A DNA stretch of 64,000 bases from assembly GCA_964016885.1 (NCBI GenBank), contig OZ024759.1:16616001-16680000 (forward strand), read 5' to 3'. Every line of letters starts with the position of its first letter. Position 1 is the stretch's first letter. Below the pieces are notes generated by a model. The model was not told where the DNA came from. It saw only the letters and a list, made by a program, of their open reading frames with translations, and did not search any database. The DNA is from Eledone cirrhosa (lineage: Eukaryota). Position numbers and translations under genes: made by a program. This document shows positions 34,930-46,400 of the stretch, piece after piece.

Positions 34930-34993
34930 TGACATATGTGGGACATGAACCCACATCTTTGGTTTGCCAGACCAATGCGCTACCATTTACACC
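34930..34993 (-). pseudogene. 5'-truncated tRNA-like sequence (GGC anticodon), probable SINE head
   Basis: Minus strand: GTGTAAATGGTAGCGC A TTGGT CTGGCAA ACCAA AGAT GTGGG TTCATGT CCCAC; the acceptor 5' strand is missing. Confidence 0.6.
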
Positions 34994-41680: not shown

Positions 41681-41819
41681 GTCTATTAACTATGATGAAA
41701 AAGATCCTTTTCTCTGTAATGCTTGTGGTTTCTGCAAATATGCTAAATTTGACTTCACTATGACTGCCAAACCATGCTGTGCTGTTGATCCTATAGAAAA
41801 TGAAGATGATCGCAAAAAA
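41681..41819 (+). CDS. UBR4: UBR4 exon 31
   Basis: [42 protein letters not shown]. Confidence 0.96.
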
Positions 41820-42554
41820 GTAAGTAATCTATATTTTTTTCACATCAGACTTAATAAAATTATGGTATTTTGAGTCAATATTCTTAACATTTTCAACCCT
41901 TTAGCATTTATATTACTCTATATTTACTATTATATTTTCACGGTAAAGGCTTTACCTGACTTAATTATCTCACATAATATTGAATCTATGATTTTGATGT
42001 TATTTATTTTGAGAACAATACCTTAACATCAATATGAGTGGCCAGTTACTGCTGGTTGGAACAGAAAGAGGTGAGAGAATTCTAGCCAGATGCGACTGCT
42101 TTAAATGCTAAAGGGTTAACAGAAGATAACTTTTATGAAAGTAATTTATTGATCATTGAGTTAATTGATCAGGTGAGGCTTCTGCCTGCTATTGGTACCA
42201 TGTACCTGTTTCATGGTCGAGTAGTTGGTGCTCCCCTCTCTATATAAAACGAGCGTGACAGTCAGATGGATGGATGGACAGGCATACTGTGCTCTTATTA
42301 TAATATAGATTATTACACGTGCTCACACACATGCATGATATATATGTATATAAAGTAATAATAATAAATGTGAAGACTAAAATCCAAAGAGGGCTCGATA
42401 AGGATATAAATATATATCAAATATATCAGAACCCTAGAGCAAATATTTATTAAAATAACAGCTTAAACTGTTATTTTAATAAATATATATAGTTGTAAAT
42501 GAATAGAGATGTTCTAAAGTAACTATTTTTTGTTTATTGTTATTATTATTATAG

Positions 42555-42744
42555 GGCGGTGGATTGGCAGTATCGGTAGAGGGTCGGACGCCATGCTTTG
42601 ACGCATAGAGTTACGGCCCTTTCCATTCTGAGTTCAAATCCCGCCGAGGTTAACTTTGCCTTTCATCCTTATGAGGGTCGATAAAATAAAGTACCAGTAA
42701 TGTACTGGGTAATTGCTGGCCTTGTGCCAAAAGTAGAAACAATT
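42555..42744 (+). mobile_element. tRNA-like SINE family B (~190 bp)
   Basis: GGCGGTGGATTGGCAGTATCGG..GAGTTCAAATCCCGCC..GTAGAAACAATT. Other copies at ~2930-3495 (-, three in tandem), 12475, 16360, 22182, 22580, 26222, 39836 (-), 49908, 52991 (-). Confidence 0.8.
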
Positions 42745-42748
42745 AATA

Positions 42749-42970
42749 TATAAATAATATAAGATCAAAAGATGGTTAAAAGAGTTCCAATATTTTATTA
42801 TGTGCATTTCAAAAACAAATATCATCATGGGATGATATCTGCGCTCTTATCATGTCTCCCTATTTTATCTGATGAGAACGCAGATATCCCATGATGATAT
42901 TTGTTTTTGAAATGCACATAATAAAATATTGGAACTCTTTTAACCATCTTTTGATCTTATATTATTTATA
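42749..42970. repeat. ~100-bp fold-back inverted repeat containing a hammerhead
   Basis: tataaataatataagatcaaaag.. / ..cttttgatcttatattatttata. Confidence 0.93.
42861..42928 (+). ncRNA. Type I hammerhead ribozyme motif (sense to UBR4)
   Basis: Stem I TATTTTAT/ATAAAATA; CTGATGA 42869-75; ~13-bp stem II; GAAA 42909-12; short stem III; AUA triplet ending 42920. Confidence 0.75.
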
Positions 42971-43049
42971 CTCCAGTCCTTACAAACTGTAGAGTGCTAC
43001 TTATCCGATATTTGCATGCTTTATTGTGCTACAATAAAACTCACCTCCT

Positions 43050-43095
<46 letters not shown>

Positions 43096-43299
43096 CATGT
43101 TAAATGATAAACTATATATACTCAAATATAAGCTGAGGAATATAAAACCCAAAAAATCAATGGAAGGGTGTTGGTTTATATTTGGTTTAAATAAGGTTTG
43201 GATTTTTACCCAGTTCTCAGACATAAAATAGTGGGGTGGCTTATAGTTATAGCAGCTTATATTCGAGTATATACAGTATTTGTGTTTTTCTTTTCCCAG

Positions 43300-43425
43300 T
43301 CAATTGCAACTATCAACAGTCTATTAGAAAAGGCAGATCGTACATATAAACAACTACAAGCTCACAAACCAGCTTTAGAAAACTTATTGATGCAAGTGAC
43401 AGAACATAGCTCTGATAGACCTTTG
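43300..43425 (+). CDS. UBR4: UBR4 exon 32
   Basis: SIATINSLLEKADRTYKQLQAHKPALENLL.. Confidence 0.94.
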
Positions 43426-46400
43426 GTAAGTTTCCTTTCCTCTAAAACTTTGTTTATTTATTCATTTATTTATTTATTCATTTACTTTTTTTCCTCACAC
43501 ACAAAAAATTTTAAAGTGAATTTAGTTTCACTTTAAAAATCTGTGTGTGAGGAACTAATAAAAAATAAAAAAAATTTTTAATATTTTTTTCCTTACCTTT
43601 TTTTTTTCTTTCATCCCTATTTTATTGCACTTTTTTTCTGCTTTAAAACATTTTCTGACACTCATTGCCAGCTACTTTTTTTTTTAATTATTATTATTAA
43701 CCCTTTTTCCTGCATCATTTCAACTCTGATTTTTACAGATCTATTCCTCAGTCAAAGATCCCACAAATCGCTGTTTCAAAACTAGTCAGCTGAGTTGTTT
43801 TGGGGTTAGTTGTTTTTAATATTCATTAAATCTTCCTAGTTATATATTTTTTCTTCTATTTGTCAACATATTCTTTCCCCCCAATCAAGCCCCTGTCCAC
43901 CCTCCTTAAAAAGAAAGAAATGCCATCAGCCAAGAGAAGAAATATCCCACAAACCCTTTTTTTTTTAACTAGTCAAGTTGTTTTAATATTAATTAAATCT
44001 TCCCAGTTATATATTTTTTCTTCTATTTTGTCAACATATTCTGTCTCCATATCAAGCCCCAGTCTACTGTCCTCCATCAGAAAAAAAAGAAGCAATTAGT
44101 TAGCAAAGAGAAGAAACAACCTACAAGTCTTTTTTTTTTATATTCATTAAACCTCTTCAGTGCCGTAGATGAGATAACTTATCTTAACATGTTTGCATTC
44201 CAGTGCCACGGATGAGATAACTTGTCCTAACATTTTCTCTCTCTCTCTCCCCCTACCAAGTTCCAACCATCCTGCCCTCCTCCGTCAAAAAAAGCCATCA
44301 GCCAAGGAAGAAATATATCACAGATCCTCCTTTTCTATGAAAATTAGTCAAGTTGTTTTTAATATTCATTATATCCTCCCAGTTATATTTTTTCTTCTAT
44401 TTTGTCAACATATTCTGTCCCCCTACCAAGTCACTGTCTACCCTCCTCCATAAAAAAGCCATCAGCCAAGCTAAGAAATATGTCAGAGACACTTTTTTTA
44501 AAAACTAGTCGTATTGATTTGGGGTTTTTTTTTTTAATCATTGAATCATAACATTTTTTCCTTTTTGTCTCTCTCTCCCCCGCAAACCCTAGTCCACCTA
44601 AACAACAAAGAGAGGAAACAATTTAAAGAGCAAGCGAGAAAACTTATAAAGATTTATATGAAAAACTCTAGTCTTTTTGTTTTTTTCAGTATCTTTACTA
44701 GTGGACAGATCTTTTTGAAAATTTGTAGTAATAGAGACTTATTTAATGTGATACAGTCAGTTATGCTAAAAGTAATGTTGCATATGCTTGCTTGTCAATT
44801 AATACTTGACATTCTCTTGTGGTTTAGCAGAAAATACTTGAAACAAATTTAATTCAAATGTTTGCAGTATCTTTACTGGTTGGCAGATCGTCATGAAAAT
44901 TAGCAATATTGGAGTAAAGACTTCAATTTTTAATGTGAAGCAGTCACAGTACTATTTTATACTTTTCAATAATGTCTTGCTAATTAGGTTTGAGATGTTT
45001 GTAGTATATTTACTAGTTGACAGATTGTTGTGAAAATTTGCAGTATTAAAATTTCAATGTGATGCAGTCATAGTACTGTTTTGTAGTCTTCAAGAAAGTC
45101 TTGCTAATGTGGTTTCAATGCAGTACAGGATGTTAAGAGTTAATTTTGTACTCTGTAAGAGTGGTGGATTGGCAGAATTGGTAGAGCATCAGATAAAAGG
45201 CCATTGCAGTATTTGTTCTGGCTCTTTGCATTCTGAGTTCAAATCCTGCTACGGTCAACTGTGCCTTTCATTCCTCTGAGGTCAATAAATAAAGTACCAG
45301 TGAAATACTGGTGTTGATTTGATCAACTTTACGATCTTGATAAAGTAAAGAACCAGTGACATACCAGTGTTGATTCAATCAACTTTTCCTTTACCCCAAA
45401 ATAGGTTGGCCTTATGTCTGAATTAGATATCAATTTTGTACTTTGGTTTAAAACACTGTGATACATTGATATCCAGTTTAATGTTCACATTTCCTATGTT
45501 ATGGGTTGGATGGGTCTGTAATAAATCCGCTTTCTTAACAGAACTAACCTTTCTCTGCTCTTCTCTCTACCTTCTGCTAATTCTTTGTCAAGCTATGTCT
45601 TATATATTTCGCCTCCTATTCAACTTCTTATGGCTTTTCTTCTTCAGTCAGCTTGTCATCAGCTATTCATTGCATCCTGCCTAACCCATGCAAGCATGGA
45701 AAATACACATTAAACGGAAAGGAAGATGATATATATATATGAGTGTGTGGTTGGAGTTAGGAAGTGCATCCAGCTTGCCAAGCAAGGAGTTAGAAGGACC
45801 CTTCAGTTTGTGTCAAAAGACATGACAACTTCTCTTCTGCACATGATATGACTGTATGTAAGCAGGATACAGACTCCTTGGTCTGTCTAGGAGGTCAGTA
45901 GCCCTGCTTCGGTACTGACTTGGTCTATGTAGACCCATCCAACCCTTGCTAGCAGGGAAAGCAGATGTTAAATGATGATAATATACATATATATTCATAT
46001 GCACACATACTAATGAAAGACAATATGATCTTTACAACATTTTAAAATTAATTTGGAGGTATTTAGTGATATAACTAACTTTCTCATTATTGAGATAGTG
46101 TTTCGAATTATGATAGAAGGCATTCATCATCATCATCATCATCATTATCAATATCATTTAATGTCTGTTTTCCCTTCTAGCAAGGGTTGATGGGTCTTCA
46201 CAGACCAAGTCAGTATTTACGCAAAGCTACTGACCCCTCAGATAGGCTAGGGCCTGCATCTCACTTATATATGATCCCACACTCAACCGAGTACATTTTA
46301 TCATGGCACCAACATTAGGGAGGATATTATGTCTTCAGCACAACTAATTGGTCCTCCATACCCTTTGTTTGGCAAGCTTTCTAAGGTTGGGTGTCCTTCC

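What the first reader, a model, noticed from the sequence alone, without database searches (positions are those of the whole stretch)
42749..42970. Sense-strand hammerhead locked inside its own ~100-bp hairpin
Seen: an intact-core hammerhead (CTGATGA 42869, GAAA 42909, predicted cut after A42920) on the UBR4 pre-mRNA strand. The upstream arm (42749-~42852) is complementary to most of the ribozyme. Inference: that arm is transcribed first and would sequester the ribozyme, protecting the host transcript. The duplex is also a likely ADAR substrate, so editing could modulate the lock.
Basis: partly seen in the sequence, partly recalled or inferred. Interest (0 to 1): 0.75.

Follow-up and report, generated by a model that had tools for sequence, protein, structure and literature searches.

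The report
Ordinary Penelope retroelement fold-back hairpin
The hairpin is the clipped end of a jumping gene whose self-cutting RNA motif has over 21,000 matches in this genome, and the complementary arm is likely a routine by-product of how these elements insert, not a lock kept to protect the host gene.

Summary
A type I hammerhead (42861-42928) lies in a UBR4 intron on the gene's strand and is predicted to be fully buried in a 100-bp hairpin. It is the 3' end of a Hydra-clade Penelope-like retroelement: inverted arm, forward copy, one-sided 81-nt tail, (TA)n. A 29-base piece of the motif has 21,673 exact matches. Of 64 consecutive insertions, 27 carry the same diverging two-arm layout, which puts the antisense arm first on either strand. 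The 'protection' reading failed a direct test. In 1.6 Mb of 13 dynein heavy-chain genes, unlocked hammerheads were 11 sense versus 11 antisense (42 motifs, 0 in controls). This copy is also predicted to be weak: its class cuts poorly and only as dimers, and it has lost the stem III palindrome kept by 98% of matches. ADAR editing is plausible but untested here. One edited family copy fixed in DNA (13 of 23 A to G) lost its GAAA core, so editing would more likely kill than release the ribozyme. The scan found this class of insertion before on other DNA of this genome.

The parts
41685..41819 (+). UBR4 exon upstream of the host intron (start approximate); donor GT at 41820
   Evidence: PF24079 positions 1-24, E 3.4e-10; splice site read
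42550..42748 (+). High-copy short interspersed repeat (SINE-like; the label is recalled) directly left of the hairpin; start approximate
   Evidence: 372 BLAST hits of 42300-42760 in the 1.6 Mb dynein set, most ending near 42710-42760
42749..42852 (-). Inverted 5'-truncated arm: second copy of the element's 3' end, without the tail, cut off inside the hammerhead's CUGAUGA box so that its own core is broken
   Evidence: (hit query 16-116, 95%)
42848..42852 (.). Inversion junction; four bases (42849-42852) fit both the arm and the forward copy (microhomology, inferred)
   Evidence: comparison with family copies L002, L004, L023
42848..42970 (+). Forward copy of the 3' end of a Hydra-clade Penelope-like element
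   Evidence: 95-97% identical to the 39 best copies elsewhere; maps on the 3' UTR of full-length copy L061
42861..42928 (+). Type I minimal hammerhead: stem I 42861-68/42921-28, core 42869-75, stem II 42876-42908, GAAA 42909-12, stem III 42912-19 with the palindrome broken at 42916, predicted cut 42920/42921
   Evidence: variant counts
42971..43051 (+). 81-nt one-sided tail of the element, present on the forward copy only
   Evidence: 33 of 44 inverted pairs have the tail on one arm only
43052..43094 (.). (CA)/(TA)n microsatellite, the family's usual target
   Evidence: same flank in most loci
43300..43425 (+). UBR4 exon downstream of the host intron; acceptor AG at 43298-99
   Evidence: PF24079 positions 26-64, E 4.2e-13

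Best explanation
This is a 5'-truncated, two-armed insertion of a Hydra-clade Penelope-like retroelement in a UBR4 intron, and its hairpin is likely a neutral by-product of insertion that is predicted to bury an already weak hammerhead. Shown: the element identity, the copy number, the arm-plus-tail layout and the intron position. Inferred from published work on Penelope-like elements: the element's endonuclease cut a (TA)n run, and its reverse transcriptase copied the RNA 3' end onto both sides of the break from two start points 81 nt apart. Both copies stopped early and were joined at the hammerhead's 5' edge. In UBR4 pre-mRNA the duplex would form during transcription, may be edited by ADAR, and would leave with the intron. 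The ribozyme would hardly cut with or without the arm.
For: Copy number: 21,673 exact matches of a 29-base piece, 0 for the reversed control. Parent element: L061 holds a diverging 881-bp arm, an 821-codon open frame, the hammerhead, the tail and (TA)n on both sides, with Hydra motifs. Layout is common: of the first 100 matches on C1 (64 insertions), 27 have a minus-then-plus pair within 7 kb and 13 within 400 bp; all 14 neighbour pairs within 400 bp are minus-then-plus. Of 44 inverted pairs, 11 have identical arms and 3, this one included, turn with no spacer. No sense depletion: in 160 stretches (1.6 Mb, 13 dynein genes) 42 hammerheads split into sense unlocked 11, antisense unlocked 11, sense locked 12, antisense locked 8, Fisher p 0.55, control 0. 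Strictly between the two domain hits, unlocked are 9 sense and 10 antisense; for this family alone, 4 and 2. Weak ribozyme: the A variant in stem III is 439 of 21,673; the dimer helix is -3.7 versus -10.5 kcal/mol and monomer stem III has probability 0.001. Papers: no monomer cleavage and low dimer cleavage for metazoan PLE hammerheads (PMC4209133); no cleavage without the element's protein and no RNA-seq ends at the site for Poseidon_Ac (PMC11167929); inverted 5'-truncated copy and one-sided tail described (PMC8557442).
Against: The strand test is small. The 95% interval for the sense share of unlocked motifs is 0.28-0.72, so a mild depletion is not excluded. Most dynein heavy chains are axonemal and tissue-restricted (recalled), so they may be under weaker pressure than UBR4. 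In the 64-kb UBR4 window this locked copy is the only motif passing the strict descriptor, and three decayed hammerhead-like motifs lie antisense; that is compatible with filtering, but n is tiny. The two arms share a one-base deletion plus the A variant, a combination found nowhere else in the genome, which could be read as kept complementarity; 5 of 43 other pairs also share rare variants. Cleavage, expression and editing were not measured. Pfam gave no reverse-transcriptase hit for the parent frame; the assignment rests on motifs and homologues.
Confidence: 0.88

Rival explanations
1. Survivor filter: the hairpin arose by chance, but in essential, broadly expressed genes sense hammerhead insertions persist mainly when locked or crippled, so the arm does protect UBR4 passively.
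For: Sequestration is predicted to be complete and co-transcriptional. The only strict hammerhead in this window is locked, and three decayed ones are antisense. Sense locked 12 versus antisense locked 8 in dynein genes (not significant).
Against: Unlocked motifs are 11 sense versus 11 antisense. They include same-family copies with the perfect palindrome, two of them 6.9 kb apart on the sense strand of one gene. This copy's palindrome is broken.
Confidence: 0.08
2. Regulated switch: ADAR editing loosens the duplex and lets the hammerhead cut UBR4 pre-mRNA under some conditions.
For: A 100-bp duplex with 74 paired adenosines. Family hairpin RNA does appear to be edited: one copy carries 13 A-to-G changes and no other change in 60 nt. 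A42916 is the base that differs from the family palindrome and lies in the duplex.
Against: About 69 kcal/mol must be undone. The core adenosines sit in the same duplex, and the edited copy lost GAAA. A dimer partner is needed and no second family copy lies in the 64-kb window. The insertion is within about 3% of other copies, so it is young.
Confidence: 0.02
3. Assembly artefact: a fold-back read error made the inverted arm.
For: 85 bases are perfectly complementary. No contig or read bridging the junction was listed.
Against: The arms differ near the turn by a 3-nt indel and two substitutions. The tail is on one side only, as in 33 of 44 pairs. The layout recurs with one fixed polarity across the genome.
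Confidence: 0.02

Closest known systems
Hydra clade of C-terminal EN+ Penelope-like elements (Craig et al. 2021, PMC8557442), which includes Hydra-1_Obim
   Same: Single frame with RT then GIY-YIG-type endonuclease, DKT, CxCX5C linker, CxxC and CxH around the conserved E and N, (TA)n target, sense hammerhead near the 3' end.
   Different: A separate family from Hydra-1_Obim: by eye the protein start and the hammerhead sequence differ. It is longer, about 4.6 kb with arm in L061 with a 3' UTR of about 1.25 kb, against 'generally <3 kb'. RWK reads RWT in L061, while its five aligned homologues have RWK or RWE.
PLE insertions with an inverted 5'-truncated copy and one-sided tail (PMC8557442 Fig. 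2 text; two RT start sites in Poseidon_Ac, PMC11167929)
   Same: Diverging arm directly at the 5' end, tail on one end only, AT-rich target.
   Different: The tail is 81 nt, not 30-40. Both arms are cut down to about 100-200 nt, so the insertion is a near-perfect hairpin.
Minimal, dimer-dependent type I hammerheads of metazoan PLEs (Cervera and de la Pena 2014, PMC4209133)
   Same: Type I topology, long helix II, short palindromic helix III; that paper already notes pairs 100-700 bp apart on opposite strands in Schistosoma.
   Different: Position 10.1-11.1 is A-U (71) or G.U (36) in 107 scored copies, never the usual G-C. There is no extra base between 9 and 10.1. This copy's palindrome is broken.
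Conserved intronic hammerheads of amniotes and the CPEB3 ribozyme (reviewed in PMC6765202, passages)
   Same: Self-cleaving motif on the sense strand of a host intron.
   Different: Those are host-conserved motifs. This is one young copy of a family with more than 21,000 matches, with no sign of host selection.

Membership tests
Hydra-clade Penelope-like element | Single ORF with RT followed by C-terminal GIY-YIG-type endonuclease | tested here: met
   821-codon frame in L061 with YRDD and a C-terminal endonuclease-like block; 18 homologues at E<=1e-63. No Pfam RT or GIY-YIG hit, so the call rests on motifs and on likeness to the Hydra alignment in the paper's supplement.
Hydra-clade Penelope-like element | DKG modified to DKT | tested here: met
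   SDKT in L061; DKT in 4 of 5 aligned homologues, DKS in one
Hydra-clade Penelope-like element | CxCX5C linker; CxxC and CxH flanking conserved E and N; no CCHH motif | tested here: met
   CNCRIKNKC, CNLC-x-NEK, CLH in L061, against the definition
Hydra-clade Penelope-like element | N-terminal RWK motif | tested here: inconclusive
   RWT in L061; RWK in 4 and RWE in 1 of 5 homologues
Hydra-clade Penelope-like element | Insertion into (TA)n and hammerhead near the 3' end | tested here: met
Hydra-clade Penelope-like element | Placement in the Hydra clade on an RT tree | not tested
   No tree was built; reference Hydra proteins were seen only as text in a supplement.
PLE insertion with inverted arm and tail | Inverted 5'-truncated copy adjacent to the 5' end, tail on one end only | tested here: met
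Type I hammerhead ribozyme | C3UGA6NG8A9 and G12AAA15.1 boxes, A15.1-U16.1, H17 not G, stems I and II | tested here: met
   not recognised by Rfam models
Type I hammerhead ribozyme | Stable helix III, as monomer or through a palindrome as dimer | tested here: not met
   Monomer pair probability 0.001; homodimer helix -3.7 versus -10.5 kcal/mol for the family palindrome
Type I hammerhead ribozyme | Site-specific self-cleavage | not testable with these tools
   Needs an in vitro assay.
Host-adopted regulatory intronic ribozyme | Signs of host selection (strand bias against unlocked copies, uniqueness) | tested here: not met
   11 versus 11 unlocked; 21,673 matches
Host-adopted regulatory intronic ribozyme | Conservation of the insertion across species | not testable with these tools
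   The genome has no relatives held; reads of other runs did not resolve the locus.
MITE or miRNA hairpin | DNA-transposon ends with internal spacer, or match to a miRNA family above threshold | tested here: not met
   The arms are 3' UTR of a retroelement; all miRNA-family matches are far below gathering scores.

The most novel reading that the evidence does not exclude
Fold-back Penelope insertions act as editing-gated RNA cutters in host introns. The arm holds the hammerhead shut, and selective A-to-I editing of the arm and of the one adenosine that breaks stem III reopens it. Thousands of such hairpins would then let ADAR tune pre-mRNA output, here of UBR4.
Probability: 0.03. Interest if true: 0.8.

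Novelty: new member of a known kind. Interest (0 to 1): 0.15.

Why it matters
As it stands, little: it is one of roughly 2,800 tight hairpins of one family (extrapolated from 13 of 64 insertions and 21,673 matches). Two side results are useful. Unlocked sense hammerheads are tolerated inside long genes (11 versus 11), which suggests that metazoan PLE hammerheads seldom cut host pre-mRNA on their own, in line with the low or protein-dependent activity reported in vitro. These insertions also seed the genome with long perfect duplexes, likely ADAR substrates. If the editing-gated reading were true, it would be a new link between RNA editing, ribozymes and gene output.

Tried and rejected
Rfam gave no hammerhead call, only sub-threshold hairpin matches. 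No RNA holder was listed among 23 runs, which says nothing on expression. Laying four runs twice did not resolve the locus: pieces were short and came from other copies, so neither the junction nor an empty site could be checked. One search showed A>G at 42916 and T>C at 42803 in a DNA run and in contigs of runs whose kind is not on record, simply from other copies, so short-read 'editing' calls here would be false. Pfam and PDB searches of the parent frame found nothing significant. The protein atlas gave no result for the parent frame or a homologue. Lunse et al. on dimer cleavage was not held, so the effect of palindrome mismatches rests on folding energies only. An ADAR footprint in this locus's own DNA was looked for and not found: 3 and 2 A-to-G differences from the column majority in the two arms, in line with subfamily variants. 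Literature: six searches turned up no paper proposing an antisense lock on an intronic PLE hammerhead; subscription papers are not covered. Seen of each paper: PMC4209133 parts 1-2 of 4; PMC11167929 parts 1-2 of 4; PMC8557442 passages, section 11 and supplement hits; PMC6765202, PMC13282606 and bioRxiv 10.64898/2026.07.22.740005 passages only (the preprint's supplements were not seen).

Full report
Observation. The motif and hairpin are as described. CTGATGA lies at 42869, GAAA at 42909, and the predicted cut follows A42920. Stem I has 8 bp and stem II 12 of 13 pairs. The arms 42749-42833 and 42886-42970 are perfectly complementary over 85 nt. The full fold has 100 pairs and a 17-nt loop at -145 kcal/mol, z -31.6. 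The host is UBR4 on the + strand. The flanking exons match consecutive parts of PF24079, which puts the hairpin in an intron at 41820-43299. Rfam does not call the motif. A descriptor written here finds it as the only strict hit in the window, with no hits in reversed controls.

What it is. The window is G000:C20:16616001-16680000 of a 3.0-Gb genome; 'octopus-type' comes from recall of its repeats and from earlier notes of the scan. The right arm hits 777 candidates; the 39 best copies elsewhere are 95-97% identical. A 29-base piece covering GAAA and the cut site has 21,673 exact matches, against 0 for the reversed pattern. Longer copies run upstream into an open frame. L061 is complete: (TA)n, an 881-bp inverted copy of the 3' end, an 821-codon frame, a 3' UTR with the hammerhead, a tail, and (TA)n. 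The protein has YRDD, DKT, a CxCX5C linker and CxxC/CxH motifs, the marks of the Hydra clade of Penelope-like elements (PMC8557442 section 11). It is not Hydra-1_Obim by eye. Pfam gives no RT hit and no tree was built. The window copy is the clipped version: inverted arm 42749-42852, forward copy from 42848, 81-nt tail to 43051, then (CA)/(TA)n. An inverted 5'-truncated copy and a one-sided tail are described features of these elements, and the tail has been tied to two start sites of reverse transcription.

How common the 'lock' is. The first 100 exact matches on C1 form 64 insertions. Of these, 27 have a minus-then-plus pair within 7 kb and 13 within 400 bp; all 14 neighbour pairs within 400 bp have this polarity. 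In a diverging pair the strand read first is antisense whichever way it is transcribed, so 'sense hammerhead preceded by its complement' follows from the geometry. Among 44 inverted pairs from 130 copies (a sample biased toward close relatives and C1), 11 have identical arms. Three turn with no spacer, namely this locus, L076 and L102, and 21 turn 81-125 nt apart. In 33 of 44 the tail is on one arm only. The two arms here share a one-base deletion and the rare A variant, a combination seen only at this locus (4 matches of the deletion pattern genome-wide, 2 of them these arms). Five of 43 other pairs also share rare variants. A common RNA template or later arm-to-arm conversion explains this without selection; I cannot tell which.

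Would the arm block the ribozyme? By computation, yes. Stems I and II have pair probabilities of 0.65-1.0 in isolation and 0.0000 in context, and forcing them costs about 69 kcal/mol. In growing prefixes the long duplex is already the best fold at 42885, before GAAA is made. This is equilibrium folding, not kinetics.

Is there anything to block? Probably little. Metazoan PLE hammerheads did not cut as monomers and cut weakly as dimers (PMC4209133). The Poseidon_Ac hammerhead cut only with the element's protein, and no RNA-seq ends were found at its site (PMC11167929). Here monomer stem III has probability 0.001. The dimer palindrome kept by 98% of matches is broken at 42916 (439 of 21,673 carry this variant), which lowers the homodimer helix from -10.5 to -3.7 kcal/mol. 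No second family copy lies in the window.

Test of protection. If sense hammerheads harmed host transcripts, unlocked sense copies should be rare inside genes. I located dynein heavy-chain genes by two domain searches and fetched 160 stretches of 10 kb from 13 of the 17 gene intervals, leaving out four short ones and parts of the two longest. The descriptor found 42 hammerheads of several families and 0 in reversed controls: sense unlocked 11, antisense unlocked 11, sense locked 12, antisense locked 8 (Fisher p 0.55). 'Locked' means an inverted copy covering at least half the motif within 7 kb upstream. Strictly between the two domain hits the unlocked counts are 9 and 10; with a perfect palindrome 7 and 6; for this family 4 and 2. 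Limits: the 95% interval for the sense share is 0.28-0.72; most of these genes are probably tissue-restricted (recalled); and three decayed hammerhead-like motifs in the UBR4 window are all antisense. Strong depletion is excluded in this gene set; a mild one is not.

ADAR. The duplex has 74 paired adenosines, so editing is plausible, but no RNA holder was listed. One family copy in a dynein intron carries 13 A-to-G changes among 23 adenosines and no other change in 60 nt. This fits earlier notes of edited RNA copied into DNA and indicates that family hairpins are edited. In that copy GAAA became GGAG, so dense editing destroys the core. Selective editing at 42916 would restore the palindrome, which is the only route I see to a switch, and it would still need the duplex opened and a partner.

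Verdict. A real, correctly described structure, but an ordinary fold-back end of a Hydra-clade Penelope-like element. Sequestration is predicted; a protective or regulatory role is unsupported. Interest 0.15.

Noticed in passing
L132:4690-4930 (G000:C7, about 13465690-13465930): Family fold-back copy with 13 A-to-G changes among 23 adenosines and no other change in 60 nt on one strand, a likely ADAR footprint fixed in DNA; the GAAA core is lost.
   Followed up: partly
window 10991, 35240, 57287 (minus strand): Three decayed hammerhead-like motifs of other families, all antisense to UBR4; none passes the strict descriptor.
   Followed up: partly
L061:1736-6345: Complete element with an open 821-codon frame and an 881-bp inverted arm 97.6% identical to its 3' end; the family looks recently active.
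   Followed up: partly
L005, L016, L021, L025, L026 upstream of the hammerhead: Most fold-backs turn 81-125 nt apart (21 of 44), at or near a short palindrome about 50 nt upstream of the hammerhead.
   Followed up: no
130 family copies: The 10.1-11.1 pair is A-U in 71 and G.U in 36 of 107 scored copies, never the usual G-C.
   Followed up: partly
L116 (G000:C22:15227140 and 15234086): Two unlocked sense hammerheads of this family with perfect palindromes 6.9 kb apart in one dynein gene, a natural test case for dimer cleavage in pre-mRNA.
   Followed up: no
window 43810-44500: Diverged tandem repeat of about 170-200 nt in the next intron.
   Followed up: no
window 34938-34993 (minus): Partial tRNA-like match, Rfam RF00005, 38.6 bits, probably the head of a short repeat.
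   Followed up: no
G000:C19:6705821-6747827 (+) and 6765888-6811056 (-): Two dynein heavy-chain genes with nearly identical hit patterns in converging orientation, a recent inverted duplication or an assembly duplicate.
   Followed up: no
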